Positions 21,956-36,865 are shown, counted from the stretch's first letter. The stretch is 64,000 nt of DNA from an uncultured bacterium (GCA_959020415.1 CAUERX010000003.1:5783-69782), one strand, 5' to 3'. A program made the numbers and translations. Notes: generated by a model not told the origin, from the sequence alone.

Positions 21956-22237
21956 CTTTTTTAAAAGGAAATCTGAAATTGATGTGGTATATTAAAAATA
22001 AGGGATAATGACAAGTAGATGTTTAACTAAATAAAAACATATGTTTTTATGATTAACATATGTTATAATTAAATAAACAAAAAGGACAGTCCCCCCTGAA
22101 GGGCTGTCCAAATAAAAGAATAAAAAGGGGCTGGCTAGTTTACACTAGCGCCAATCCAATATAAATTGAATTGGTGATTAATATAATATCACAAAAATAG
22201 AATATGTCAACAGTTTTTCATAAAAAAGTAAAAAAAG

Positions 22238-24296: not shown

Positions 24297-24391
24297 AGCA
24301 TAGACAGCTGTCTATGTTAGGAAGACTTACGAATATAATGTGAGTATTCCGACCAAAACCCCCTGAAGGCTACCGAAAGGTAGCCATTTTT
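24297..24391 (+). ncRNA. Candidate ~95-nt small RNA (unknown family) downstream of recG; its terminator region carries the IME attachment core
   Basis: It follows the promoter above and has no ORF. Three predicted hairpins: CATAGACAG/CTGTCTATG, GGAAGACTTAC...GTGAGTATTCC, and GGCTACC-gaaa-GGTAGCC plus a T-run. Confidence 0.35.
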
Positions 24392-24481
24392 GTTTATTTA
24401 TGGGTATTTTTTGATATTTTGATAGTACGCTACCCATCATTCTACCCATCAAGTTGATGGTTTATTATAGTTTATATAGGT

Positions 24482-25669
24482 TTAATCAGAAGACTTATCG
24501 TTAAAGTCTTTTTCTAATGAGTCAAAAAATTTAGGAACATTTGCATAATCTTTTTTGACTAAATGGGTATATGTTTCTAATGTTTCTGTTGTTTCTGAGT
24601 GGCCTAGATAATTAGATACAGCGGTAATAGGTGCAGCAGCTGATATTAAAGCACTAGCACAAGAATGTCTAAAATCGTGAATTCTAATATGTCTAAGTCC
24701 AGCTTTCTTACAATAATTATTATTTCTACTGTAAATTTGATGATAGGTTATAGGAGTATCATCTCCAAATACAAACCAGGTTTGTTTAAACTTTGAAAAA
24801 CGTTCATTTGATTTTTTTAATTTAGCTAAGTCTTTTAATAAAACTTCAGGAATGGGAATAGTTCTATTAGATGATTCTGTTTTAGGACTTGCTATATACC
24901 ATGAACTACTAGCGTTATTTCCAGCTAAATTTAAAACTTGTTGAGCTATTGTTAAAGTATGATTCTTAAAATCAATATGTCTCCATTGTAAACCTCTAGC
25001 TTCACTTCTTCTAAGTCCACAGTAATATAATGTTTCAAATAAACATTTATCACGCAAATCATTTATTACTGATATATATTGAAAAAATTCTTGTGGTTCA
25101 TAAAAATCCATTTCTTTTTTTATAGCCCCAGGTGTTTTAAATGGTTCTAATTTATTATAAAATTTTCTTAAATTAAAATCCCATTGTTTTTCAGCAAAGT
25201 TTAATACTTGTTTAATAAATTTCTGTATATCAGTTTTATATTTATCACATAAATTAGTTTTATTCATTTGAGATCTCCATTTTTGATAGTGTTCCCAGTT
25301 CAAATTTACTAATTCTATATTATCTAATAAACCCATATATTTAATTCTATCTCTATATGTCTTTAGAGTAGAGTCTTTTATTTTATCTTTTTGATATTCA
25401 TAATAAAGTGTATATGCTTCTTTAAAAGTCATATGGGGATTAACTTCAACATCTTTATATTTATCTAAATATTCTAGTTCTGCTTTTGTTGCTTCTTCTT
25501 TGGTAAAATAGGCTTGTGATTGATATTGATGTCTTTTACCATCTAATCCTTTACTATATTGTATAAATACCCAAGATCTTCCATCTCTTGTTCGTTTATT
25601 TTCTTTAAGCTGTCTTACGGACATTAATTTATTACCTCCTTTATTAATCCGTAAAATATCGACATACAT
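24482..25669 (-). CDS. int: Tyrosine-type site-specific integrase
   Basis: C-terminal catalytic signature: GLRRSEARGL (Arg), HDFRHSCAS (H-x-x-R), LGHSETTETLETYTH (His...Tyr). N-terminal SAM-like arm/core-binding region. Confidence 0.9.
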   Translation of the reverse strand: MYVDILRINKGGNKLMSVRQLKENKRTRDGRSWVFIQYSKGLDGKRHQYQSQAYFTKEEATKAELEYLDKYKDVEVNPHMTFKEAYTLYYEYQKDKIKDSTLKTYRDRIKYMGLLDNIELVNLNWEHYQKWRSQMNKTNLCDKYKTDIQKFIKQVLNFAEKQWDFNLRKFYNKLEPFKTPGAIKKEMDFYEPQEFFQYISVINDLRDKCLFETLYYCGLRRSEARGLQWRHIDFKNHTLTIAQQVLNLAGNNASSSWYIASPKTESSNRTIPIPEVLLKDLAKLKKSNERFSKFKQTWFVFGDDTPITYHQIYSRNNNYCKKAGLRHIRIHDFRHSCASALISAAAPITAVSNYLGHSETTETLETYTHLVKKDYANVPKFFDSLEKDFNDKSSD

Positions 25670-25813
25670 CTATATTTTACCATTTATTTAATTGTTTTTA
25701 ATGATTATCTAATTAATTTATCGATTTTATCAATAAAAAAGACCAACATAAAGTTGCTCTAATTATCTATAATTATTTTCTTAAATATTTTTATTAAAAA
25801 AATTTAATCTATA

Positions 25814-26308
25814 TTATTTTAATAATCTTAATAGAAAAGAAAATCTCCAATTTAAAGAATTTAATTCATATCTGTGTTCGGCATTAATAATTTCCATTTC
25901 AATATTATCTTTAGTTAATTTATCAATATTATTTTCGATGTTTTTATATGCATTAATTACTTCATTATTGTTAAAAGTGTCTTTTTTTAATTGGTAATCA
26001 ATGTTTTTTAATATATCTTTTTTTATATAATTCTGTTTTGTTTCAATATATAATAAACATTTTTTTAAATTAGTGGTATAGGCTAATAATAAGTCTTTTT
26101 GGATATCATTTAAATTTGTTAAAATGACTATTACAAGTATTTGATAAATTGTATAGCAAGTTATACATCTTTCTATAAAATCATATATCGTAGAAGTTCC
26201 TTTCATAAATGTTGATAAATAAGCAAGTGAGGTTGATACACCAATAACTTCAACTAAATAAATAAAAATCTGTGTTAATGTTTTTGATATAATATATCTT
26301 TTTTTCAT
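25814..26308 (-). CDS. Hypothetical membrane protein (2 TM helices + coiled-coil tail), IME cargo
   Basis: 164 aa. Two N-terminal hydrophobic helices and a K/N/E-rich C-terminal half. No family recognised. Confidence 0.55.
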   Translation of the reverse strand: MKKRYIISKTLTQIFIYLVEVIGVSTSLAYLSTFMKGTSTIYDFIERCITCYTIYQILVIVILTNLNDIQKDLLLAYTTNLKKCLLYIETKQNYIKKDILKNIDYQLKKDTFNNNEVINAYKNIENNIDKLTKDNIEMEIINAEHRYELNSLNWRFSFLLRLLK

Positions 26309-26339
26309 AAGGCATCACTCTTTCTAAAGAAGTATTATA

Positions 26340-27788
26340 TCATAATTCAAAATCATCAGATTTATCTTTATCATATTTTTTATTAATTTTTTTACTTAAA
26401 CTTTTGAAAGAGTAGTGGTCATATTCTTGTTTTTTATCAACATCTAGACCTAGTGTTCTTTTTAGAGCTTTAAATAAATCAGTGGCAACTTCTTTAACAT
26501 TAGAGATTATTTCATTAAATGTTTCTTTTAATTCTGATATTTCTTTTCTAAGTGAATTAATAATTGTATTTTGATAATTTATTGTTTCATCTTTTTCTTC
26601 AATAATTAATTTTTGATTTTCAATAATTTTATCTTTTTCTTGTAAAGTTTTACCTGATTTAAGATTTCTTATTTCGTTATTTAATTTATCAATTTGTTTT
26701 TGTTTATACTTGAGATTAATTTCATTTTGTTCAATTGTTTTATCTTTATTTAAATTATCTTTAGTTACTTCTTTAGAATAATTAGATAAATTGATAATAT
26801 CTTTTTCTTTATATCCAATTATTCTGCCTTTTTCAGGATTTAGAAGGGGATTAGTATCGACATCAGATATTTTATCTTTATATTTTAATTCTACTTTGTT
26901 TAAATCTTTATTTTTGTTATATTCCATTTTTATTAGTTTAGTTTCTGCTCTAAGTTCATCTAAATATTTTTCTGCTTTTGTTTGATGATGTTTATTAGCT
27001 CCAATTTGACCCCTATCAAGATTGAATCCTTTATCATTAATATATTTATTATAATCATCTTGAATTTTAGCAAATGAAGTTTTAAATCCTCGGTCTTTCC
27101 AAAATTGATCGGAATTTAAGAATCTTCCATATTCGATAGTATACATATTTTTTCCGTTTTCATCTTTCTTTTGAATAGGTATTAATTTTTCTTTCCCATC
27201 TTTCCCAACATATGACTTTAATAATTGATGACCATTTTCATCAGTTTCAAATACTTTTCTATGAACTTGATTTACTACTGGAGTAAAATAAAAATGCATA
27301 TGAGGAGTATCTTCGTCAAAATGAATAGCAGAGTAGACTACATTTTCTTTTCCAACTAAATCACACAAAAATTGATGAGAATATTCAAAATAATCTAATA
27401 CTTTTTTCGGAATATCATTTTTATCATTAATAACAACTTTATTTATAGGTTCACCTTTATGATCTCCAGTTAAATGAATCCTACCTGTTTCTTCAAATTT
27501 CATTCCTAATGCTTTGAAAAATTCTTGACCACTTGTTATTACACATCCGTTTAATAAGTTGATTTTTTTATTATTTTTATTAAATTCTACCTTGTTATTA
27601 TAAAGCGTTTTATAAGTTGAACTAGCTAAATTAGTACTACAAAGAGGAACATATTCTATATTAAATTTTGTTCTATTTGTATCGTAATTACCTGTGCCAA
27701 TTCTATCAGTAAGTTCTTTACCAAGACCACCAATATCAGAAGATTTTATTTTGTTTGTTATTGTTAAAACTTGTTTACCAGCAAACAT
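26340..27788 (-). CDS. mob: MobV-family (Mob_Pre) plasmid-recombination/relaxase protein
   Basis: HFDEDTPHMHFYFTPV matches the MobV HxDE..PHxH motif III. Long C-terminal coiled-coil, as in pMV158-type Mob proteins. Confidence 0.8.
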   Translation of the reverse strand: MFAGKQVLTITNKIKSSDIGGLGKELTDRIGTGNYDTNRTKFNIEYVPLCSTNLASSTYKTLYNNKVEFNKNNKKINLLNGCVITSGQEFFKALGMKFEETGRIHLTGDHKGEPINKVVINDKNDIPKKVLDYFEYSHQFLCDLVGKENVVYSAIHFDEDTPHMHFYFTPVVNQVHRKVFETDENGHQLLKSYVGKDGKEKLIPIQKKDENGKNMYTIEYGRFLNSDQFWKDRGFKTSFAKIQDDYNKYINDKGFNLDRGQIGANKHHQTKAEKYLDELRAETKLIKMEYNKNKDLNKVELKYKDKISDVDTNPLLNPEKGRIIGYKEKDIINLSNYSKEVTKDNLNKDKTIEQNEINLKYKQKQIDKLNNEIRNLKSGKTLQEKDKIIENQKLIIEEKDETINYQNTIINSLRKEISELKETFNEIISNVKEVATDLFKALKRTLGLDVDKKQEYDHYSFKSLSKKINKKYDKDKSDDFEL

Positions 27789-27870
27789 AATATAATCCTT
27801 TCGTTAGTTTATGACGTTGTGACATTAGATATTTGGGTGGGATTGTTCTTTTGGTCATTTTATGACCTAT

Positions 27871-28004
27871 CTCACTAGGGCATAGCCCGAAAGTGAGTTA
27901 AGGGAAACCCTTAAAAACCCATTCTTGTTTATAGCAAAGACTTAAGATATACTTAAGCCTAAGCTAATAAACAAGTGCTTATTTATTTTAACGATAAATA
28001 AGCA
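27871..28004 (-). promoter_or_regulatory. Candidate oriT / mob promoter region (cluster of inverted repeats)
   Basis: Nested IR CTCACT-a-GGGC-ata-GCCC-ga-AAGTGAG (27871-97). TTAAGGG-aaa-CCCTTAA (27898-914). CTTAAG-atata-CTTAAG (27941-57). TGCTTATTTAT-N7-ATAAATAAGCA (27976-28004). All sit in the 268-bp gap upstream of mob. Confidence 0.4.
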
Positions 28005-28057
28005 GAAGATGAATCATTATCGCCACTTTCACTTGCAAGCAAGCAAAACGTGCCACA

Positions 28058-29023
28058 TTAATCATCTTCATTTTGCGAAGGCTCTATAAATGTAGCATGA
28101 TATAATCTGCTTTCAGCAGTTCTACATTTAGTGATATGAATACCTTCGCTTTCTAAGAGTTCCAGACTACTATTAAGTAGTCTACCAAATCTCTTAGGTG
28201 ACATTGGTATATTGGCTTTTAACACAATATCAGTACAAGTAAAATCAATTTCTTTTTGACTAGCAACATACTTTATAAAAGAAGTCATTTCATATGAAAG
28301 TTCATCATCTTCAATAGAATTTATTTTTTGAAATATAAGATTATCTAATTTTTTTAATTGGATGTCTAACTCTGGAAAATCTCTATTAATTGTTTGTAAT
28401 TTAACATATCTTTTATTAGATTTATTTTCTATTAAAGTGATTCTACCATCTACTGTTGCATCTAATGCAACACTTCCTAAAGTTTTACCAGTTTTATTTA
28501 GATGATGTGTAACTAAAAAAGTAACATTATATTTATCACAATAAGTTCTTAATTTTGGAAATACCTGCTGAGCAACATCTTGATAATTATTAATGTCATA
28601 TTGAACTCCAAAATCAATATCTTTTAACATATCTAATATTATTAATTTACCATTGTAATCCTCAGCAAAAACTTTAATATCGTATTCTATATCTCTTAAT
28701 GATATATTAGCTTTTGTTTGTCTATCTATTATAAATAGTGAGTCGTTTTTTGCGGAAAGTTCTAGGAATTCTAGACGTTCCTTTAATTGACCAGCATCAG
28801 ATTCTGTGGTAACATATAAAACAGGTGAGTGATTTACTTTTTGTCCTAAAAAAGGTGTTCCGTTAATAACGGAGCAGGAAAGTTGCAGTGCCAACATAGA
28901 CTTTCCTACTTTTGGATTAGAAACTAGTAGATACACGCCTTTAGACTTCATTATATTATTTATGATGATGTCTTTTTTTATGCTTGTATCTACTTTTTCA
29001 ATAGGTTTGAGCAATTTTAACAT
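28058..29023 (-). CDS. RepA/DnaB-like RecA-fold ATPase (AAA_25-type) of the IME
   Basis: Walker A SNPKVGKSM, Walker B LIILDML, 321 aa. This type is commonly paired with integrase and relaxase on small islands. Confidence 0.65.
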   Translation of the reverse strand: MLKLLKPIEKVDTSIKKDIIINNIMKSKGVYLLVSNPKVGKSMLALQLSCSVINGTPFLGQKVNHSPVLYVTTESDAGQLKERLEFLELSAKNDSLFIIDRQTKANISLRDIEYDIKVFAEDYNGKLIILDMLKDIDFGVQYDINNYQDVAQQVFPKLRTYCDKYNVTFLVTHHLNKTGKTLGSVALDATVDGRITLIENKSNKRYVKLQTINRDFPELDIQLKKLDNLIFQKINSIEDDELSYEMTSFIKYVASQKEIDFTCTDIVLKANIPMSPKRFGRLLNSSLELLESEGIHITKCRTAESRLYHATFIEPSQNEDD

Positions 29024-29261
29024 CTCCCTTCAAATTTTTACTTCTTGATTCTAAATAATCAATATCGATATTTAAATATTTAACAACTTCTCGCATTGGT
29101 ACAGCGTTCTTTGGAACATAATAACCTTTACTTTCTAAATCATTTTTGATTTTACTTTTAATAGTTAATGCTGAATTTCTGCCTATATTTGCAAGTTTCA
29201 TTAAATCTGATAAGTTGCACCATTGTTGTGCAATAAGCTTTAAAGTTTCATCTACGGTCAT
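28998..29261 (-). CDS. Small DNA-binding protein (excisionase/HTH-like)
   Basis: 87 aa. Overlaps the downstream ATPase gene. The LSDLMKLANIGRNSALTIKSKI segment is HTH-like. Its position is typical of Xis-type or regulatory proteins. Confidence 0.45.
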   Translation of the reverse strand: MTVDETLKLIAQQWCNLSDLMKLANIGRNSALTIKSKIKNDLESKGYYVPKNAVPMREVVKYLNIDIDYLESRSKNLKGDVKIAQTY

Positions 29262-29274
29262 ATTACACCTCCTT

Positions 29275-29592
29275 TTATCTTTCTAATTCTTCGTATTTTT
29301 CGTATCTTATATCAACAACTTTTTTATATTCATCAGTAGGTTGCATAGAGATACTAAGACCAAGATATGAATCTTTACTAACACATTCTTCTAAGCCAAA
29401 GAAATGTGCATAATCATTTTCCATTAATTCATTAGCAAACTTTATAGTTTCTGCTTTAGTATTAGGATCTAATAGAAGTTGTCTTAATGATGTGGTTACA
29501 TCAAAACATATTAAGCAATATAGTCCTTTAGCTCCTAATGATAACTTAGAATTTTCTAAAACATCATTTCTAATAGAAGTAAAGTATTTCAT
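29275..29592 (-). CDS. Hypothetical wHTH protein (replication-initiator/DnaD-N-terminal-like)
   Basis: FTSIRNDVLENSKLSLGAKGLYCLI resembles the FT-IPN-ll-d--LS--aKglY wHTH seen in phage and plasmid Rep proteins. Start set at ATG 29592, 8 nt after a GGAGGTG RBS that lies inside the longer ORF call. Confidence 0.45.
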   Translation of the reverse strand: MKYFTSIRNDVLENSKLSLGAKGLYCLICFDVTTSLRQLLLDPNTKAETIKFANELMENDYAHFFGLEECVSKDSYLGLSISMQPTDEYKKVVDIRYEKYEELER

Positions 29593-29755
29593 ATATTTTT
29601 TCACCTCCTTCATTATCTAAAAAGGGTAGAGTACTTTCGGGCATAAGCCCTTTTGAAATTTTAGTTATTTCATAACTTGATATATTAGTCATACCATAAC
29701 TCCTCTTTGCCAGTATGAGGATAATTTCTGCCTTGCATTTTTTACTTAATGGCAT
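29570..29755 (-). CDS. Possible small Cro/Xis-like protein (61 aa), uncertain
   Basis: Internal Met of the 91-aa track ORF. Divergent from the XRE gene. Overlaps the next gene by 23 nt. No clear RBS. Confidence 0.25.
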   Translation of the reverse strand: MPLSKKCKAEIILILAKRSYGMTNISSYEITKISKGLMPESTLPFLDNEGGEKIYEILYFY

Positions 29756-29812
29756 ATCGGCGATTTCCACTAAGACTAAGTTTTCAAATAACAAATTTAA
29801 CTTAACATTTCG

Positions 29813-29880
29813 TGTCCGAAATATCAGTCGATTAAAATATAACACTGTCCGAAAAACTTGTCAATACTTTTTGTCCGAAA
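29813..29880 (+). promoter_or_regulatory. Three TGTCCGAAA direct repeats (candidate operators) in the divergent IME control region
   Basis: TGTCCGAAA occurs at 29813-21, 29846-54 and 29872-80. The third lies in the spacer of TTGTCA (29858-63)-N18-TATAGA (29882-87), upstream of the XRE gene. Confidence 0.5.
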
Positions 29881-29931
29881 TTATAGACAACTTTTTAAAA
29901 AAATGATAAAATTAGTTAAGAAGAAGAAAAA

Positions 29932-30474
29932 ATGGGAGAAAGAAGTGAATATATGAATTCAGGAGAACTTAAAAGTATTATTGAAAGTGCTAGAGAAGCT
30001 AAAGGTATATCACAAAGAGAACTTGCAAAGTTATCAGGAATCAGTAGAAGTACTTTAAATGATATTATTAATGGCAAAATAAAAAAAATAGATGTAGATG
30101 CATTAAAAAAGATAGCTGAAACATTAGACTTATCTTTGAAAAAATTATTAAAAGTAGCAGGATATGATGAATTTCTAGATTATTTATCATTAGATAGATA
30201 TAAAAATAAATCCACAAGGGATTTAAAAGATATGATAGAAAGATATAAAAAGTCCCAATTAGATTTATTAGATTGGGATGCTAAAAAAAGAGCAGTAGTA
30301 AATGATGCAAGAGGAAAATTATTTTATACTATGGAACATTTAAAATTAATGCAAGAAAATAAGGATAGTTTATATACGATTGATAAAGCTATAGAAGATA
30401 TAAAATATGCTTTTGATGAATTGGTAAAAGCTCAAAATAAATATGATTACAGCAAATTGCCAAAGGATTTTTAG
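29932..30474 (+). CDS. XRE-family HTH regulator with ~110-aa helical C-terminal domain
   Basis: ISQRELAKLSGISRSTLNDIINGK is a classic Cro/CI HTH. First gene of the plus-strand cargo block. Confidence 0.8.
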   Translation: MGERSEYMNSGELKSIIESAREAKGISQRELAKLSGISRSTLNDIINGKIKKIDVDALKKIAETLDLSLKKLLKVAGYDEFLDYLSLDRYKNKSTRDLKDMIERYKKSQLDLLDWDAKKRAVVNDARGKLFYTMEHLKLMQENKDSLYTIDKAIEDIKYAFDELVKAQNKYDYSKLPKDF

Positions 30475-30498
30475 ACAAAGTAGACATCAGTACACTAT

Positions 30499-31653
30499 AT
30501 GGAGGTAGAAATTATGAGTAGATTAAAACCGTTTATAAAATGGGCAGGTGGTAAAGAAAAAGAATTACCTATAATAATTGATAATTTGCCAACTAATTTT
30601 GATAGGTATGTAGAACCGTTTGTAGGTGGTGGATCAGTTTATTTATCAATGAATTGTAAATCATCAGTCATAAATGATAAATCAGATGAATTAATGTTAC
30701 TTTATAGTATGATTAAAGATAATAATAAAGAGTTTCATAGAAGTTTAAAAGAAATAAATAAAAATTGGATTGAGATAGAAAAAATAGTAAAGAATAGTTC
30801 AGAGGAATTACTAGATTTATATAATATGTTCAAAAAAAATGAGTATGAACTAGATGATTTAGTAGATAAATATATGAAAAATCATGCTAAAGAACTAAAT
30901 AAATTACTAAAAGAAGATTTAGATATTAATTTATATAATCTAATTATTGAAATAAAGAAAAATTTGTTATCTAAAATAAATAGAATGTACAAAATTGAAA
31001 AACAACGTGGTGAAATGTGTTTGACTGATGTTATGGACAATCTTGAAACAGCATTTAAAAGTGCTTATTATATGTATTTTAGATATTTATATAATAATAG
31101 AAAAAAACTTAAATTAAGCGATGAATTTTATTGTGCAGTATTCTATTTTATAAGAGATTATTGTTATTCGGCAATGTTTAGATATAATGCAAATGGTGAA
31201 TTTAATGTACCGTATGGAGGTATTAGCTATAATAGAAAAGACTTTAAGAAAAAAATAGATTATATTGAATCTGAAGAATTAATTAATAAATTATCTGAAA
31301 CTAAATTATATTGTTTAGATTTTGAGAAATTTTGTAATGAAGTAAAATTAACTGAAAAAGATTTTATGTTTTTAGATCCACCATATGATACTGAATTTTC
31401 TACTTATGCAAAAAATGATTTTGATAAAGATGATCAAATAAGGTTGGCAAACTATCTTAAAAATACAAAGGCTAAATTTATGCTAATTATTAAAAATACA
31501 GATTTTATTTATGATTTATATAAGAATAAAGGCTTTAACATAATTGTTTTTGATAAAAAATATTTAGTTAGTTTTATGAATAGAAATAATAAAAAAACTG
31601 AACATTTACTTATAACTAATTATGAATCGGAGGTAAAAAATGGAACAAACTAA
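30499..31653 (+). CDS. Dam-type (D12 class, alpha) N6-adenine DNA methyltransferase with enlarged middle region
   Basis: KWAGGKEKELP, EPFVGGGSVYL (FxGxG SAM motif) and FLDPPYDTEF (DPPY motif IV). At 384 aa it is about 100 aa longer than canonical Dam, with the extra sequence between motif I and DPPY. Confidence 0.85.
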   Translation: MEVEIMSRLKPFIKWAGGKEKELPIIIDNLPTNFDRYVEPFVGGGSVYLSMNCKSSVINDKSDELMLLYSMIKDNNKEFHRSLKEINKNWIEIEKIVKNSSEELLDLYNMFKKNEYELDDLVDKYMKNHAKELNKLLKEDLDINLYNLIIEIKKNLLSKINRMYKIEKQRGEMCLTDVMDNLETAFKSAYYMYFRYLYNNRKKLKLSDEFYCAVFYFIRDYCYSAMFRYNANGEFNVPYGGISYNRKDFKKKIDYIESEELINKLSETKLYCLDFEKFCNEVKLTEKDFMFLDPPYDTEFSTYAKNDFDKDDQIRLANYLKNTKAKFMLIIKNTDFIYDLYKNKGFNIIVFDKKYLVSFMNRNNKKTEHLLITNYESEVKNGTN

Positions 31654-32452
31654 AGAAAATAAAATAAGAGAAAAAGTGAGAAACGCAATAAGAGAATTTT
31701 CTGAAAAATTTGAAGAAAGATATATGAGAGAATTAAACGATTCTACAGGTGTTATTAATGCAAAAAAGAATAATGCCTTCGTTTCTGAATTAGGAAATGA
31801 ATTTATGTTTTATTCAGCTTTTTGTCGATCTTTTGATTCTAGTTTTGGGAAAGTACTAGAAAAATTATCAAACGATATTGCAGGTATTTCATATGAAGTA
31901 GTTTTAGAAAATATATCGTCTTATTTGTTACCAGAACAAATTCAACGTAAATCAAATATTATGAATGAATATGACAAGCACGTTAAACCAAGGGTTGAAG
32001 ATTATACATCATTACATGCATATAAGCCAACAAATGTAGATAGTTATAAAAAGAAACATGTTACAGACAATCATTTTTATAAAAAAGATACTAAAGAACA
32101 TTTTATAATTGAATTAAAAGCTGGTGGAGATTTAGATATTAAAAAAGCTAAAAGTGAAAAAGAAGCTTTAATAGATCAATATTATATTTTATCAAACGCA
32201 TTGGATGATCCGGAAGAAAGTGTAAAAATATATTTGGCAACTGCCTATAATATGTATGGAGAAGGAAATGAATGGAGACAAGAAAGAGTAAAACAGTTTT
32301 TTAGTGATGATGAATTGCTAATTGGAAAAGAATATTGGGATTTTGTGTGCGATGATGAAAATGGCTACAATATAATTATTGATGAATATAAAAAAAGTGC
32401 TAGATATATATTAGAAGCTTTAGATAGAATTAAAACAGCATATTTCAATTAA
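31640..32452 (+). CDS. PD-(D/E)xK nuclease-like protein, probable restriction endonuclease partner
   Basis: HVTDNHF...HFIIELKAGGDLDIKKAKSEKEAL gives a D...E-L-K motif. Overlaps the methylase stop by 14 nt and has a GGAGG RBS. Possibly TdeIII-like, from memory only and unverified. Confidence 0.55.
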   Translation: MEQTKENKIREKVRNAIREFSEKFEERYMRELNDSTGVINAKKNNAFVSELGNEFMFYSAFCRSFDSSFGKVLEKLSNDIAGISYEVVLENISSYLLPEQIQRKSNIMNEYDKHVKPRVEDYTSLHAYKPTNVDSYKKKHVTDNHFYKKDTKEHFIIELKAGGDLDIKKAKSEKEALIDQYYILSNALDDPEESVKIYLATAYNMYGEGNEWRQERVKQFFSDDELLIGKEYWDFVCDDENGYNIIIDEYKKSARYILEALDRIKTAYFN

Positions 32453-32479
32453 ATTTTATATCAAGAAAGAAGTGGTAAA

Positions 32480-34615
32480 ATGAAAATTGATTTTCATTGT
32501 CATACAATAAAAAGTAAAAGTGAAGAATCTGAAGAACGAAATGTAAGTGTCAATTTATTTAAAGAAAAAGTATTATTGAGTGGAGTTAAAATAATTGCAA
32601 TAACAAACCACAACATATTTGATAAAGATCAATATTACGAATTTAAAGCCGCTGTTAAAGATAATTGTCAAATATGGCCAGGAATAGAATTAGATGTTAT
32701 TGGACAAAGTGGTGCAAATGGACACTTAATATTAATAGCTAATCCTGATGATGTAGAGGAATTTTCTAAAAAGATAAATAAAATATTAAATGGTAGTACA
32801 CCAGATAATTTTAAAATAAATTTAGATGATTTATATAATGAGATTAAAATGCTTAATTTAGTTTATGTTGCACATTGTTTTAAATCGAAGGCTCTCCCAT
32901 TAAATGATATAGAAGAATTTTCAAAAATGTTAGAAAATCCTAAAAGATTATTTAAAGAACCAAGCTCTCTTACTTCTGTAACTGTTCTTCAATCAAATAA
33001 GCATAGAGTCGTTATCGGTACTGATGTTATTCATTGGGGTAATTATGAAAATTATAATTTTGGAGAGTTTAAATTTGAGTTAAAAGATTTTACTTCATTT
33101 ACTAAAATAATTGAAAAAGACAAATCATTTTTAAGAGATATAGTGGATGAAGAATTTAGTGAAAATGTAAAAGTATATGGTAAATTAGCTACTAAAGAGC
33201 ACCCATTTATTATACCTATATATAATGATTGTAATATAATTTTTGGTGATAAAGGAAGTGGGAAAACTGAAATATTAGAGTCGTTGGCTGAATATTATAA
33301 ACTAGAAAAAAATGAAGAACCGGTTTTTTATAAAGGTGGAGACAAAGAAGAGTGGTATAAAGGTTTAATAAAAATAAATAGCGAAGATTATGATCTTAAA
33401 AATTTTAAAGAAGTTGACGATAAAAAAGAAGAGTTAAAATATATTTCAAATTTTATAGATATTACTCCCGTATCTGTAAAAAAATATAAAGACTATTTTC
33501 AAAAAAAAGCAAAGAAAGCTAGCAAAGATAAAATGAAGTGTTTATCAATTAATAAAAGACATCTTTATAATGAAAATAAATACGTTGAAATATATAATGA
33601 TTATAAAAAAATCACTTCTTTTTTACGAGATTATAATAATATTGATACTAGCGATGTATTGGAAAATCAAGAAAATGAATTATTAACTTCATTGTTAAAA
33701 AAATTAAAAACTGGTTTATTTGAAAAATCTAGAACTGAATGGATTAATCAAAAATCAGAGTATTTATTTGATGATTTTGTTACAAATATGTCCATATATG
33801 TCTCAGAAAATGTTGGAGAACCGACAGCTCCTACTGAAACAGGGTTTGCTGCATATGCAAAGAATAGGCTAAAGATTAGAAGTTTTTCTTCAAGTATATT
33901 AGCTGAACTTGAAAAGTCAAATGAAGACGAAGGGATATATATTGGTAATTTAGGTGCCAAAGGAGACGTTTATTTATCTTCGAATTATTTTTTTATAAAT
34001 TGTAAAAATAAGAATGGTATCGATTACAAAATATTAAAAAATAATAAAGGAGATTTAAGTAACTTTGTGACGTTGTTAGAAAAATTAAAAAAAGATTTTA
34101 CTTTGGATATATCACGAACAGTAAACGATTTGAAAGTGCTTTATGATAAAGGAATAAATTCTATGACTGAATTTATTGCAGTTAAAAAAGATTTTAAATT
34201 AAATAAAATTAGTTATAAACCTTCAAAAGGAGAAAATTCTATACTTGCTTTGCAACATGAATTATTATCTAAAAAAGAAAAAAATGTTTTTCTTATAGAC
34301 GAACCAGATTTGAGCTTAGGCAGTACTTATATAAACGAGGTTATTGTTCCTTTATTTAAGGATTTAACAAAATCGCAAAAGATTTTAGTAGTTGCAACCC
34401 ATGATGCTAATATTGCAGTCAGAACTCGCCCTTTAAACAGTATTTTAAAGTTAACAGAAAATAATGTATATAAAACGTTTATTGGCAATATGTTTACTGA
34501 TGTATTAACTGATATTGATGATGAAAACAATCAACTAAGTTGGAAAGAACAAAGCATAAAGTATCTAGAGGGTGGAGAGCCAGCTTTTGAGGAAAGAGGA
34601 GAATTATATGAATAA
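32480..34615 (+). CDS. PHP phosphoesterase domain fused to Rad50/SbcC/OLD-like ABC ATPase (711 aa)
   Basis: PHP motifs: HCHT (aa 6-9), AITNHN, GIELD, GHLIL. Walker A GDKGSGKT (nt 33245-68). About 320 aa of K/E/N-rich insert. Signature-like PSKGENS. Walker B VFLIDEPD (nt 34286-). ATHD His-loop. Confidence 0.8.
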   Translation: MKIDFHCHTIKSKSEESEERNVSVNLFKEKVLLSGVKIIAITNHNIFDKDQYYEFKAAVKDNCQIWPGIELDVIGQSGANGHLILIANPDDVEEFSKKINKILNGSTPDNFKINLDDLYNEIKMLNLVYVAHCFKSKALPLNDIEEFSKMLENPKRLFKEPSSLTSVTVLQSNKHRVVIGTDVIHWGNYENYNFGEFKFELKDFTSFTKIIEKDKSFLRDIVDEEFSENVKVYGKLATKEHPFIIPIYNDCNIIFGDKGSGKTEILESLAEYYKLEKNEEPVFYKGGDKEEWYKGLIKINSEDYDLKNFKEVDDKKEELKYISNFIDITPVSVKKYKDYFQKKAKKASKDKMKCLSINKRHLYNENKYVEIYNDYKKITSFLRDYNNIDTSDVLENQENELLTSLLKKLKTGLFEKSRTEWINQKSEYLFDDFVTNMSIYVSENVGEPTAPTETGFAAYAKNRLKIRSFSSSILAELEKSNEDEGIYIGNLGAKGDVYLSSNYFFINCKNKNGIDYKILKNNKGDLSNFVTLLEKLKKDFTLDISRTVNDLKVLYDKGINSMTEFIAVKKDFKLNKISYKPSKGENSILALQHELLSKKEKNVFLIDEPDLSLGSTYINEVIVPLFKDLTKSQKILVVATHDANIAVRTRPLNSILKLTENNVYKTFIGNMFTDVLTDIDDENNQLSWKEQSIKYLEGGEPAFEERGELYE

Positions 34616-34898
34616 AAATATAATAGACGTTGAATTGATAACTGAAGAGGAAAAACAGTTATTAGTATTTAATTTTGATGAAAAAATATTTTTGGATTTA
34701 GCAAGTGATAATGCAGAAGAACTTAAAGATTTTTTTCAACAGTTATTAATAAAAATATTAGAAAAAAATATAGAATTAAATTTTGTTGAAAAAGATAGAA
34801 ATGATTTATTTTATGATGTTGCTAAAAAATATGTTGACCATTTGAAAGTTGAAATAGCATCTATTGTTAATCAACAGCTTAATAAAATTGATGATTAA
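34608..34898 (+). CDS. Small acidic protein (96 aa), translationally coupled to the PHP-ATPase
   Basis: ATG 34608 sits 6 nt after an AGGAG RBS and overlaps the upstream stop (ATGAATAA). D/E-rich with no recognised family. The track start at 34572 is unlikely. Confidence 0.6.
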   Translation: MNKNIIDVELITEEEKQLLVFNFDEKIFLDLASDNAEELKDFFQQLLIKILEKNIELNFVEKDRNDLFYDVAKKYVDHLKVEIASIVNQQLNKIDD

Positions 34899-35110
34899 GA
34901 AAATAAAATTTTGTTATATATGTTTTTAATGTCATTTTGTCATCATAATAAATAAAAAAACTGATGAATAATTTCTACCCATCAGCTACCCATCAAATTA
35001 TGCTGAATTTATCAATTTTTAGTTAAATTTTATTAAACTTAAAATGAATTGTATGCCGATATTACGGGGATTTTTAATAATCCTCTTTTTTTATTAAATT
35101 GCCCCCTGAA

Positions 35111-35137
35111 GGCGCCATATATTGGGCGCCGCTTTTT
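35111..35137 (+). terminator. Rho-independent terminator at the right IME junction (putative original terminator of the sRNA)
   Basis: GGCGCC-atatattg-GGCGCC-GC-TTTTT directly follows the CCCCCTGAAGGC core. Confidence 0.6.
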
Positions 35138-35554: not shown

Positions 35555-35809
35555 ATGAATAATGATTTTAAAGTTTTAATTCAAAATTTGAATAAATTAC
35601 ATACCACAGAAATGGGTATCGATCGAATAAAGAAAAATCTTGATTTAGGCACTAATGATGTTGTTGCTTGGTGTCGAAAAAAGATTAGAGATTCAAAAAG
35701 TTATATTTTTAGAAAAGGTAAGAATTGGTATGTTGATATAGAAAATTGTGAGATCACAGTTAATGCTTACAGCTATACAATAATAACTGCCCATAAATTA
35801 AAAAAGTAA
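35555..35809 (+). CDS. DUF3781-like small protein
   Basis: LHTTEMGIDRIKKNL and the overall 84-aa layout resemble DUF3781 (from memory). GAGGAG RBS. Confidence 0.55.
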   Translation: MNNDFKVLIQNLNKLHTTEMGIDRIKKNLDLGTNDVVAWCRKKIRDSKSYIFRKGKNWYVDIENCEITVNAYSYTIITAHKLKK

Positions 35810-35818
35810 GGTGATAAA

Positions 35819-36432
35819 ATGAGACCTCAGTTCAAAGATATAGAATCTTATGACGAATTTAAGAAGTATTGTTGGTATTTAGAAGAATTAAAGCAAATTT
35901 GTAAAGAATTAAAAATTGATTATTCTGGCGGTAAGATAGTACTCAATTATAATATTGAAGAATATTTCAAAGGTAACTTAATAAAAAAGCAACAACGAAT
36001 TAGAAAAAATAAAAATGTGGTTGATGCCCTTACGTTAGATACTAAATTAGTAGAATGTGGTTTTGCTTTTAATCAAAGATTTAGAGATTTTTTTATTGAG
36101 CAAACTGGAGTTAATAATTTTAAATTTAATGTTGATATGGCAGCAACTGTTAAAAAAGTAAAACTAGATAATGATGATACATTTACTTTAGGAGATATAC
36201 TAGATATTTATTATGGTAAAAAGGAATATGCGAAATATGATAATTCATCATATTAGTGGAATAAGTTTTTAAAAGATTTTTGTACTGATGAAAAAAACGG
36301 ATGTTTTTAATAACAAATTAAAAGATACCTCAAAGTTATGGAGTATAGCTTGCGATTCGATGGTGATAAAGTTTACAGCAGACAGTTATTAGATGAAAAC
36401 TGGGATATATTTAATAAATATTTTAATTGTTA
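35819..36432 (+). pseudogene. SAP-domain-like protein gene interrupted by in-frame stops
   Basis: The ORF ends at TAG 36254-56. The same frame then continues WNKFLKDFCTDEKNGCF, TAA TAA, then QIKRYLKVMEYSLRFDGDKVYSRQLLDENWDIFNKYFNC-stop at 36430-32. Confidence 0.5.
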
Positions 36433-36514: not shown

Positions 36515-36865
36515 ATGAATATTGGAGAAAAAATTTTTAAATTAAGAAAAGAATTAAAACTTTCACAAGAACAAGTAGCAGAAAAGGTAGGGGTTACAAG
36601 ACAGACAATTTCAAACTGGGAGCTTAATGAAACTGTGCCAGATACTAATCAGCTTATTGCTTTGTCTAAAACTTTAAATATTAGTATTGATGAATTAGTT
36701 AATAACGATATAAATAATATTATGGTTAAAAAGGTTAGTAATACAGAAAGATTAGCCGGAATGGTTATTAAAATACTTAAAGTAATTGGAACTTTGATAA
36801 TTATGTATGGAGTGTTTATATTGTTTATGGGATTAGTAATTATAATATATGCAGCATGCAAATAA
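36515..36865 (+). CDS. XRE-family HTH protein with C-terminal membrane anchor
   Basis: LSQEQVAEKVGVTRQTISNWE HTH plus a C-terminal hydrophobic helix. Confidence 0.8.
   Translation: MNIGEKIFKLRKELKLSQEQVAEKVGVTRQTISNWELNETVPDTNQLIALSKTLNISIDELVNNDINNIMVKKVSNTERLAGMVIKILKVIGTLIIMYGVFILFMGLVIIIYAACK

What the first reader, a model, noticed from the sequence alone, without database searches (positions are those of the whole stretch)
29932..34898. IME cargo operon: XRE regulator, enlarged Dam methylase, PD-ExK nuclease-like protein, PHP::ABC-ATPase fusion and small acidic protein, a candidate composite or novel anti-phage system
Five co-directional genes occupy the whole cargo half of the mobilizable island.
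- They are tightly coupled. The methylase and nuclease-like genes overlap by 14 nt. A 27-nt gap precedes the PHP-ATPase. The PHP-ATPase and the small ORF overlap as ATGAATAA.
- A Dam-type MTase plus a PD-ExK protein would make an ordinary type II R-M pair. Here, however, they sit in an apparent operon with a 711-aa phosphoesterase-ATPase and a 96-aa acidic protein, neither of which belongs to canonical R-M.
- The methylase carries roughly 100 extra residues between motif I and DPPY.
- PHP+ATPase single-gene defence proteins have been reported, to my recollection as Ppl/PplA in Gao et al. 2020. I also recall, without being able to verify it, PGAP labels linking TdeIII-type nucleases with an accessory AAA-like ATPase.

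The 4-5-gene linkage on an IME could be either an R-M stacked with a Ppl-like gene, or a single modification-dependent system in which the ATPase-phosphoesterase is the effector or sensor.
Basis: partly seen in the sequence, partly recalled or inferred. Interest (0 to 1): 0.85.

Follow-up and report, generated by a model that had tools for sequence, protein, structure and literature searches.

The report
Restriction system plus PHP-ATPase defence pair
The five genes are not one machine: they are a mobile-element regulator, an ordinary restriction-modification pair, and a separate, widespread but untested two-gene nuclease-ATPase module, sitting side by side on a small mobile island.

Summary
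They fill the cargo arm of a 10.75-kb integrative mobilizable element (window 24359-35112), bounded by an 11-bp direct repeat. They fall into three independent parts.

1. The XRE gene belongs to the island backbone. Homologues sit at the same backbone position in related islands that carry other cargo.
2. The 379-aa Dam-family methylase and the 270-aa TdeIII-family endonuclease form a self-contained type II R-M pair. Homologous pairs occur on a Psychrobacter plasmid and in 39 of 80 metagenome loci, never with the PHP-ATPase.
3. The 711-aa PHP::ABC-ATPase and the 96-aa acidic protein form an invariant, translationally coupled two-gene cassette. The pair is present in 76 of 80 genome loci (the other four are truncated) across six or more phyla. 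It never sits with a TdeIII gene, has no other conserved neighbour, and often lies beside unrelated defence genes.

The ATPase is a distant, collinear relative of the untested PADLOC candidate PDC-M49A. It is not a member of Ppl or TrlF. The small partner matches no family or fold library.

Verdict: an R-M stacked with an uncharacterised candidate defence pair, not a single five-gene system. Interest is moderate.

The parts
24359..24369 (+). Left copy of the 11-bp direct repeat CCCCCTGAAGG. This is the left border of the island.
   Evidence: Identity with 10 other copies of the island ends exactly here.
29836..29912 (.). Divergent promoter-like region between the backbone genes (- strand) and the cargo genes (+ strand).
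   Evidence: On the - strand, TTGACA-17-TATATT (11/12, with TG). On the + strand, TAGACA-17-TAAAAT (with TG), ending 20 nt before the XRE ATG. These are consensus matches only.
29932..30474 (+). XRE/Cro-C1-type HTH regulator (180 aa), part of the island backbone.
   Evidence: Pfam HTH_3, E 1.5e-16. Homologues of 74% and 56% identity sit at the same position in L060 and L067, next to homologous Mob, AAA_25 and orf87 genes but ahead of different cargo.
30514..31653 (+). Alpha-class (Dam-family) N6-adenine DNA methyltransferase, 379 aa. The alternative start at 30499 gives 384 aa. An enlarged region lies between motif I and DPPY.
   Evidence: - TIGR00571 scores 172.5 bits against a cutoff of 114.85.
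- PADLOC MTase_II PDLC03349 aligns in one stretch, 9-374 to 5-357 of 374.
- It is 41% identical over its full length to the methylase next to the TdeIII gene of plasmid pA3H9.
31640..32452 (+). TdeIII-family type II restriction endonuclease (270 aa).
   Evidence: Pfam PF09520, E 5e-43, 7-251 to 2-239 of 242. It is 46% identical to the annotated TdeIII-family enzyme of pA3H9.
32480..34615 (+). PHP phosphoesterase (about residues 1-225) fused to an SMC/Rad50/AriA-like ABC ATPase carrying a short coiled-coil insert (711 aa).
   Evidence: - The AF2 model has pLDDT 90.3.
- Foldseek matches the PHP domain to Pol III alpha and RNase AM, and the ATPase to SMC3, JetC, Rad50 and AriA heads.
- Invariant in 73 homologues: H6, H8, H44, E70, H82, H132, D182; Walker A G256-K262; signature S582/G584/E585; Walker B D607-E608; H641.
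- PADLOC PDC-M49A, E 8e-35.
34608..34898 (+). Small acidic partner protein (96 aa, pI 4.46), translationally coupled to the ATPase gene.
   Evidence: - A homologue lies directly downstream in 76 of 80 loci. The other 4 loci are truncated.
- 458 cluster representatives, almost all stand-alone proteins of 90-130 aa.
- No Pfam, NCBIfam, PADLOC or PHROG family matches.
- The AF2 model has beta-beta-beta-alpha-beta-alpha order, pLDDT 74.
- No significant fold match.
34959..35092 (+). Non-coding tail of the island, with two terminator-like hairpins: 34959-34987, and 35066-35085 followed by a T run.
   Evidence: The sequence is identical in all island copies.
35102..35112 (+). Right copy of the 11-bp direct repeat CCCCCTGAAGG. 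This is the right border of the island.
   Evidence: Eight other copies of the island diverge from the window immediately after this point, into at least 4 different flanks.

Best explanation
The region is a stack of three independent units in the cargo arm of a 10.75-kb integrative mobilizable element.

1. **Backbone regulator.** An XRE-type repressor-like regulator belongs to the island backbone. It probably controls the divergent promoter region.

2. **Type II R-M system.** An alpha-class Dam-family m6A methyltransferase with an enlarged target-recognition region protects an unknown A-containing site. The TdeIII-family endonuclease cuts that site when it is unmodified.

3. **Autonomous two-gene cassette.** An N-terminal PHP metal-dependent phosphoesterase (nuclease) is fused to a Rad50/SMC/AriA-like ABC ATPase, and is made together with a ~96-aa acidic protein.

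For the cassette, the most likely mechanism is inferred, not shown:
- ATP binding and hydrolysis by the dimerising ABC head gates the PHP nuclease.
- The small subunit is a stoichiometric regulator or sensor that keeps the nuclease silent until infection or foreign DNA is detected.
- The nuclease then degrades nucleic acid. This parallels ATP/NTP-controlled Ppl and the ATPase-nuclease pairs of PARIS, Septu and Gabija.

In this island the three units are probably co-transcribed. That is packaging, not functional integration.
For: **Independence of the cassette**
- Among 80 genome loci encoding relatives of the PHP-ATPase, a homologue of the small protein lies directly downstream, overlapping, in 76. 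The other 4 end less than 280 bp after the gene.
- None of the 80 has a TdeIII homologue. Only 3 have a remote Dam-like gene.
- No other neighbour family occurs in more than 16 of the 80 loci.
- Pairwise identities of the two proteins correlate, r = 0.95 over 72 loci.
- Annotated plasmids pCF011-89, pWMD-P1-1 and pV2200 carry the pair without the R-M.

**Independence of the R-M pair**
- Psychrobacter plasmid pA3H9 has a TdeIII-family enzyme (46% identity) beside a 376-aa adenine methylase (41% identity over full length), and nothing else of this set.
- In 80 metagenome loci with TdeIII relatives, 39 have the homologous methylase. None has the PHP-ATPase or the small protein. This includes the closest relatives, at 83%/64% identity.

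**XRE as a backbone gene**
- L060 and L067 share Mob, AAA_25, orf87 and XRE homologues with the window, but carry other cargo such as SoFic.

**Intact catalytic apparatus**
- The PHP metal ligands and all the ABC motifs are invariant in 73 homologues.
- The AF2 model has pLDDT 90, with a PHP domain like Pol III alpha and RNase AM and an SMC/Rad50/JetC/AriA-like head.
- AriA is the best PDB sequence match.

**Defence context**
- Neighbours elsewhere include HsdR, SoFic, an AbiO/Nhi-like Schlafen helicase, and type II methylases.
- The ATPase matches PADLOC candidate PDC-M49A in 24 of 24 family members.
Against: - In this island only 27 nt, with no terminator, separate the nuclease gene from the PHP-ATPase. 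No internal promoter stands out above shuffles. The units are therefore co-expressed here, and some cooperation cannot be excluded.
- R-M genes are the commonest immediate neighbours of the cassette elsewhere. That could reflect more than defence-island clustering.
- A defence role rests on guilt by association and on remote homology to an untested PADLOC candidate.
- No relative was found in the phage collection, and no experiment exists.
- The role of the small protein is pure inference: no family, no fold match, and no complex model could be run.
Confidence: 0.8

Rival explanations
1. All five genes form one integrated, modification-dependent defence system. The methylase marks self DNA, and the PHP-ATPase with its small protein acts as effector or sensor together with the PD-(D/E)xK nuclease. 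This would resemble MADS, BREX or MANTIS.
For: - The genes are tightly packed and co-directional: a 14-nt overlap, a 27-nt gap and an 8-nt overlap.
- There is a single strong promoter-like site upstream and terminator-like hairpins only after the last gene.
- There are weak PADLOC hits of the XRE to mad1 and of the ATPase to mad8.
Against: - 0 of 80 PHP-ATPase loci have a TdeIII gene.
- 0 of 80 TdeIII loci have the PHP-ATPase or the small protein.
- Each pair occurs alone on plasmids.
- The mad1 and mad8 hits are generic HTH and ABC-ATPase matches (E 1e-3 and 1e-4).
Confidence: 0.04
2. The PHP-ATPase/small-protein pair serves the mobile element itself rather than anti-phage immunity. It could be an addiction or stabilisation (toxin-antitoxin-like) module, or a DNA-processing factor for transfer or integration.
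For: - The pair is found on IMEs and plasmids.
- In S. aureus plasmids it lies next to IS257 and an Fst toxin.
- A nuclease with a small acidic partner, tightly coupled, looks like a toxin-antitoxin layout.
- It is absent from the phage collection.
Against: - Most of the 80 loci are chromosomal contexts without a shared mobility backbone.
- The neighbours are mainly defence genes, not transfer genes.
- Related ABC-ATPase nucleases are defence proteins: AriA, PtuA, GajA, AbiLi, Ppl.
- The two roles are not mutually exclusive.
Confidence: 0.12
3. The cassette is a PARIS-like guard of restriction. It senses phage anti-restriction proteins or the failure of a neighbouring R-M, whichever one lies nearby, and then unleashes the PHP nuclease. 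Its placement after an R-M would then be functionally meaningful without a fixed partner.
For: - AriA is the closest solved relative of the ATPase by sequence, E 6e-11.
- R-M genes are the most frequent immediate neighbours: type II methylases and HsdR.
Against: - The similarity to AriA is no stronger than to PtuA, AbiLi, mad8 or HEC ATPases.
- There is no Toprim AriB-like partner.
- Many loci have no R-M gene next to the pair.
- Clustering with R-M is expected for any defence gene.
Confidence: 0.08

Closest known systems
TdeIII-family type II R-M with a ~376-aa Dam-family methylase (for example Psychrobacter plasmid pA3H9, WP_181716609/WP_181716615)
   Same: - The endonuclease is 46% identical and the methylase 41% identical over full length, including the enlarged region.
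- The two genes are adjacent on one strand.
- The same pairing occurs in 39 of 80 metagenome loci.
   Different: - The gene order here is methylase then nuclease, with a 14-nt overlap. In pA3H9 it is nuclease then methylase.
- In many relatives the Dam-like domain is the C-terminal half of a 670-aa fusion with a beta-class methylase.
- The recognition site is unknown. TdeIII itself is recalled to cut GGNCC, which has no adenine. That is my own knowledge, not tested here.
PADLOC phage-defence candidate PDC-M49 (component A)
   Same: - PHP plus ABC ATPase of about 680-710 aa.
- All 24 family members tested hit the PDC-M49A models. Relatives align end to end, 3-703 to 4-670 of 674.
   Different: - The scores are low for a 700-aa protein (about 120 bits), so this is a sister family.
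- The small partner matches no PADLOC model.
- The identity of PDC-M49B could not be looked up.
- PDC-M49 is itself an untested candidate, and no paper mentions it.
Ppl (Gao et al. 2020), a single-gene PHP exonuclease plus NTPase
   Same: - It combines a PHP nuclease domain with an NTPase.
- Ppl is described as an ssDNA 3'-5' exonuclease held off by bound NTPs (PMC12904381).
- This is the best functional analogy for an ATP-gated PHP nuclease.
   Different: - The PADLOC Ppl model does not hit the window protein at E <= 0.01. It hits only 5 of 24 relatives, best E 5e-8.
- Ppl works as a single gene. This family always has a coupled small partner.
PARIS (AriA ABC ATPase plus AriB Toprim nuclease)
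   Same: - AriA is the best PDB sequence match, E 6e-11. AriA heads also appear in the fold search.
- Both are two-component ATPase/nuclease designs.
   Different: - The nuclease here is a fused PHP domain, not a separate Toprim protein.
- The partner is a 96-aa acidic protein with no nuclease motif.
TrlF of the Photorhabdus temperature-restriction locus (NCBIfam NF045780)
   Same: - N-terminal PHP ('histidinol phosphatase') followed by an AAA-like ATPase.
- The PHP regions align, E 5e-18.
- The operon begins with a small regulator.
   Different: - 65 bits against a cutoff of 350.
- The TrlF profile is 944 positions long.
- The TRL operon has TrlG (AlbA_2 plus HATPase_c_4) and no small acidic downstream partner.
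Mre11-Rad50 / SbcCD
   Same: The design logic is shared: a metal-dependent phosphoesterase nuclease controlled by a Rad50-type ABC head with a coiled coil. Rad50 heads appear among the fold matches.
   Different: - The nuclease fold differs (PHP versus calcineurin-like).
- The two are fused in one chain.
- The coiled coil is very short.
- There is no evidence of a repair role.

Membership tests
TdeIII-family type II restriction endonuclease (Pfam PF09520) | Full-length match to the family profile above the gathering score | tested here: met
   147.9 bits against a cutoff of 27.2; residues 7-251 align to 2-239 of 242.
TdeIII-family type II restriction endonuclease (Pfam PF09520) | Adjacent cognate DNA methyltransferase | tested here: met
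   A Dam-family methylase overlaps by 14 nt. Homologous pairs occur in pA3H9 and in 39 of 80 metagenome loci.
TdeIII-family type II restriction endonuclease (Pfam PF09520) | PD-(D/E)xK catalytic motif | tested here: inconclusive
   D143 ... E158-L-K160 are identical in the window protein and the pA3H9 enzyme. No structure or wider alignment was examined.
TdeIII-family type II restriction endonuclease (Pfam PF09520) | Sequence-specific cleavage blocked by the partner's methylation, and the recognition site | not testable with these tools
   This needs methylome data or enzyme assays.
Dam-family (alpha-class, D12) N6-adenine methyltransferase | TIGR00571 score above the cutoff; motif I FxGxG and motif IV DPPY | tested here: met
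   172.5 bits against a cutoff of 114.85. EPFVGGGSV and LDPPYD are in the sequence.
E. coli Dam equivalog (NF008152, GATC) | Equivalog score of at least 441 bits | tested here: not met
   81.5 bits. The region between the motifs is enlarged, so a different specificity is expected.
Ppl (Gao 2020) | Match to the Ppl profile (PADLOC PDLC02208) | tested here: not met
   No hit for the window protein at E <= 0.01. 5 of 24 relatives hit, best E 5e-8.
Ppl (Gao 2020) | Single-gene system | tested here: not met
   A small partner gene is directly coupled in 76 of the 76 loci that extend far enough downstream.
PADLOC candidate PDC-M49 | Component A profile match | tested here: met
   E 8.3e-35 for the window protein. 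24 of 24 relatives match, and relatives align end to end. The scores are low, so this is a sister-family level of relatedness.
PADLOC candidate PDC-M49 | Second component (PDC-M49B) present | tested here: inconclusive
   No PADLOC model matches the small protein or 49 of its relatives. What PDC-M49B is could not be looked up.
TrlF family AAA-like ATPase (NF045780) | Score of at least 350 bits; operon with trlR and trlG | tested here: not met
   65.2 bits, essentially the PHP part only. No AlbA_2/HATPase_c_4 gene is in the operon.
PARIS (AriA/AriB) | AriA-type ABC ATPase plus a separate Toprim AriB | tested here: not met
   AriA similarity is at superfamily level only: E 1.7e-8 in PADLOC and 5.8e-11 against PDB. 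There is no Toprim protein, and the partner is a 96-aa protein with no family.
Methylation-linked multi-gene systems (MADS, MANTIS/Gao_RL, BREX-like) | Conserved co-occurrence of the methylase with the ATPase/effector genes | tested here: not met
   0 of 80 and 0 of 80 in the two reciprocal synteny surveys. Only generic mad1 and mad8 hits were seen. The MANTIS components differ.

The most novel reading that the evidence does not exclude
The PHP::ABC-ATPase plus 96-aa acidic protein is a genuine, so far undescribed two-component immune system. A small subunit with no detectable sequence or fold relatives gates an ATP-controlled PHP nuclease. Its frequent placement next to R-M genes may reflect a PARIS-like role as a back-up that fires when restriction is subverted.
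Probability: 0.3. Interest if true: 0.6.

Novelty: new variant of a known kind. Interest (0 to 1): 0.35.

Why it matters
The finding is not a new five-gene architecture, and the R-M part is ordinary. What remains of value is a cleanly delimited two-gene cassette.

- It is strictly conserved, with 458 partner-protein clusters.
- It spans Bacillota, Bacteroidota, Campylobacterota, Spirochaetota, Pseudomonadota and Patescibacteria.
- It occurs on plasmids, including S. aureus resistance plasmids.
- Public annotation labels it only 'histidinol phosphatase', 'AAA family ATPase' or 'hypothetical protein'.

If it is a defence system, it adds a PHP-nuclease branch with an obligate small regulator to the ABC-ATPase/nuclease defence superfamily (PARIS, Septu, Gabija, AbiL, Ppl). 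It would also give a compact 2.4-kb unit that can be tested directly.

The island is also a tidy example of a mobilizable element that stacks defence modules and inserts at many sites.

Tried and rejected
- **Literature.** 'PDC-M49' appears in no paper. 'TrlF' turned out to be the Photorhabdus temperature restriction locus, not a TdeIII-linked factor. Searches for PHP plus ABC-ATPase defence systems found only Ppl and Ophion. MANTIS/Gao_RL was read and rejected as unrelated.
- **Small protein, family searches.** No match in Pfam, NCBIfam, PADLOC or PHROGs. The KH_DTX3L hit occurs in 1 of 49 members, so it is chance. One LmuC hit in 49, at E 0.003, was not pursued.
- **Small protein, fold and fusions.** Foldseek against PDB and BFVD gave nothing with E <= 0.001. 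The top weak hits, retroviral integrase cores with TM 0.35-0.46 and rmsd around 13 Å, share only the beta-beta-beta-alpha-beta-alpha order. There were no informative fusions among 458 representatives, apart from one 214-aa protein.
- **Phage collection.** No relative of the ATPase was found.
- **Insertion site.** No Rfam family lies there.
- **Look-ups that failed.** The integrase look-up with the 394-aa start failed. The 380-aa start worked.
- **Other negatives.** A large-plus-107-aa gene pair flanking one island copy (L095) is not a homologue of the cassette.
- **Not attempted.** Motif-avoidance analysis to guess the R-M site was not run, because the sequence is too short and the island is mobile.

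Full report
**Observation**

- XRE 29932-30474
- Dam-like methylase 30499-31653
- nuclease-like protein 31640-32452
- PHP::ATPase 32480-34615
- small ORF 34608-34898

The 14-nt overlap, the 27-nt gap and the ATGAATAA overlap were read directly. The methylase more likely starts at ATG 30514, 8 nt after a GGAGG. That start (379 aa) is used by the gene calls on eight identical metagenome copies. The small protein is acidic, pI 4.46.

**The island**

Sixteen other metagenome contigs carry the same element at about 100% identity. Identity with the window stops on both sides exactly at an 11-bp direct repeat, CCCCCTGAAGG, at 24359-24369 and 35102-35112. The element is therefore 10.75 kb.

- The - strand carries the integrase, a 164-aa ORF, a Mob_Pre relaxase, an AAA_25 protein and small ORFs.
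- The + strand carries the five genes.
- The flanks differ between copies: at least 5 right and at least 6 left contexts. It is an active, multi-site mobilizable island.
- A divergent pair of promoter-like sites lies at 29836-29912. Terminator-like hairpins occur only after the last gene.
- Internal promoter-like matches are no more frequent than in shuffles (58 against 48 ± 7). Co-transcription of all five genes is plausible but not shown.

**What the proteins are**

- *XRE.* A plain HTH_3 regulator.
- *Methylase.* It passes the Dam-family model (172.5 bits against 114.85) but not the E. coli Dam equivalog (81.5 against 441). The Dam profile aligns in two pieces, leaving about 75 residues between motif I and DPPY. 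A PADLOC type II methylase model of 374 positions aligns in one piece, so a subfamily of this size is already known.
- *270-aa protein.* A full-length member of Pfam RE_TdeIII, E 5e-43.
- *711-aa protein.* By profile it is only weakly PHP and SMC_N. It hits PADLOC PDC-M49A at E 8e-35, and AbiLi, AriA, mad8, PtuA and GajA weakly. It does not hit Ppl. It scores 65 bits against the TrlF cutoff of 350.
- *96-aa protein.* It matches nothing.

**Synteny test, from the ATPase side**

The ATPase has hundreds of homologues of about 710 aa. A scan of one genome per GTDB species found 271 loci, of which 80 were fetched.
- An iterated profile of the small protein finds a homologue on the same strand, overlapping or abutting the ATPase stop, in 76 of 80 loci. 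The remaining four contigs end less than 280 bp downstream.
- No locus has a TdeIII homologue. Only three have a remote Dam-like gene, which is far off or on the other strand.
- After clustering all neighbours, the next most common family is in 16 of 80 loci, at variable distance and on either strand.
- Pairwise identities of the two proteins correlate across 72 loci, r = 0.95.
- The hosts span Bacillota, Bacteroidota, Campylobacterota, Spirochaetota, Gammaproteobacteria and Patescibacteria.
- RefSeq plasmids of Clostridium, Photobacterium and, more distantly, S. aureus carry the same large-plus-small pair. They annotate it 'histidinol phosphatase', 'AAA family ATPase' and 'hypothetical protein'.

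**Synteny test, from the R-M side**

- Psychrobacter plasmid pA3H9 (8.6 kb) has a TdeIII-family enzyme (46% identical) directly followed by a 376-aa 'DNA adenine methylase'. That methylase is 41% identical to ours over its whole length, insertion included. The plasmid has no ATPase.
- Among 80 metagenome loci with TdeIII relatives, 39 contain the homologous methylase and none contains the PHP-ATPase or the small protein. The closest relatives are 83% (nuclease) and 64% (methylase) identical and keep the same gene order.
- In many loci the Dam-like part is the C-terminal half of a 670-aa double methylase.

**The XRE gene**

L060 and L067 carry homologues of the window's Mob (54%), AAA_25 (47-61%), orf87 (59-60%) and XRE (74%, 56%) in the same arrangement. 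Different genes follow the XRE:
- In L060: SoFic, a kinase-like protein and others.
- In L067: unknown 1358-aa and 295-aa proteins.

A divergent (34% identical) PHP-ATPase pair comes later in each. The XRE is therefore a backbone regulator of this island family, not a dedicated R-M controller. The PHP-ATPase pair is a recurrent cargo of that family.

**Anatomy and likely mechanism of the cassette**

In an alignment of 73 homologues the following are invariant:
- PHP ligands H6, H8, H44, E70, H82, H132 and D182
- Walker A (G256-K262)
- ABC signature (S582, G584, E585)
- Walker B (D607-E608)
- H-loop histidine (H641)

AlphaFold gives a confident model, pLDDT 90.3.
- Its first ~225 residues match the PHP domains of Pol III alpha and RNase AM.
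- The rest matches SMC3, JetC, Rad50 and AriA heads, with a short helical insert at 365-477.
- AriA is the best PDB match by sequence profile, E 6e-11.

The small protein is predicted with pLDDT 74 as beta-beta-beta-alpha-beta-alpha, with conserved polar faces on both helices. It has no significant fold relative. Its family has 458 representatives, almost all stand-alone proteins of 90-130 aa, with a median pI of 4.7.

- *Shown:* an intact-looking PHP phosphoesterase fused to an intact-looking ABC ATPase, always co-inherited and translationally coupled with the small protein.
- *Inferred:* they form a complex in which ATP turnover gates the nuclease and the small subunit regulates or senses. 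This is by analogy with NTP-controlled Ppl (PMC12904381) and with PARIS, Septu and Gabija.

A defence role is supported only by context and by homology to an untested PADLOC candidate. The context includes HsdR, SoFic, AbiO/Nhi-like helicase and type II methylase neighbours.

**Comparison with known systems**

- The R-M part is an ordinary member of a known pairing.
- The cassette is a sister of PDC-M49A. All 24 members tested match, and relatives align end to end, but at only about 120 bits.
- It is not Ppl: the profile is not matched and the system is not single-gene.
- It is not TrlF: it scores far below the cutoff, and the operon differs.
- It is not PARIS: there is no Toprim partner.
- No paper in the library describes PDC-M49 or a PHP-ABC-ATPase with a small partner.

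**Verdict**

The 'composite' alternative is supported and the 'single novel five-gene system' alternative is not. The interesting residue is the uncharacterised two-gene cassette, a new variant within the ABC-ATPase/nuclease defence-like superfamily. Interest is 0.35.

Noticed in passing
window 24359-24395 and 35102-35130; L081-L088, L093-L102: The island is bounded by the 11-bp direct repeat CCCCCTGAAGG and sits in at least 5 different right and at least 6 different left contexts (after recG here; also beside GmrSD, VanZ and others).

In every copy the right flank starts with a GC-rich hairpin plus a T run, which looks like a host terminator. The island carries its own such hairpin (CTACCGAAAGGTAGCC plus Ts) just inside the left repeat. 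This suggests insertion just upstream of terminator hairpins. No Rfam family lies at the site.
   Followed up: partly
window 22092-22102: A third exact copy of CCCCCTGAAGG lies upstream of recG, here inside the loop of a hairpin (GGACAG...CTGTCC). In shuffles, three matches to the 10-mer with up to one mismatch are rare: mean 0.5, and 2 of 100 shuffles reach 3. It is possibly a secondary target, or chance.
   Followed up: no
L060 1-4235; L067 1-7788: Related islands share the Mob, AAA_25, orf87 and XRE backbone but carry other cargo after the XRE: SoFic in L060, and a 1358-aa plus 295-aa gene pair in L067 and L069. That pair has no Pfam or PADLOC match and lies directly upstream of the PHP-ATPase pair. 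It is an unexplored candidate module.
   Followed up: partly
L126 6810-8822 (and about 25 similar loci among L124-L178): In many TdeIII-family loci the partner is a 670-aa double methylase. The N-terminal half is beta-class (DPPY near the N terminus). The C-terminal half is the same enlarged Dam-like domain as in the window. This hints at an asymmetric or two-strand modification requirement in those relatives.
   Followed up: partly
protein P0321 (214 aa): This is the single case of a fusion. An HsdR_N/PD-(D/E)xK-like N-terminal domain is joined to the C-terminal two thirds of the small-protein family. It could be a real Rosetta-stone link to a nuclease, or a gene-call artefact.
   Followed up: no
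L092 (S. aureus plasmid pV2200 and at least 4 similar plasmids): A distant relative of the cassette (704 aa plus an overlapping 100 aa; 28-30% identity) sits between IS257 and an Fst toxin on mobilizable staphylococcal resistance plasmids. Both genes are annotated as hypothetical. The large protein hits only mad8 in PADLOC.
   Followed up: partly
L081-L088 gene tables versus window 31640-32452: The same Pfam accession, PF09520, is labelled 'RE_TdeIII' by the hmmscan library and 'HinfI' in the precomputed gene tables. The naming is inconsistent, so the label says nothing reliable about the recognition site.
   Followed up: no
window 35555-36256: Just outside the island are a DUF3781 protein (84 aa) and a SAP_new25/DUF6434 protein (145 aa), followed by another XRE-type gene at 36515-36865. 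These are host-side genes of unknown function.
   Followed up: no
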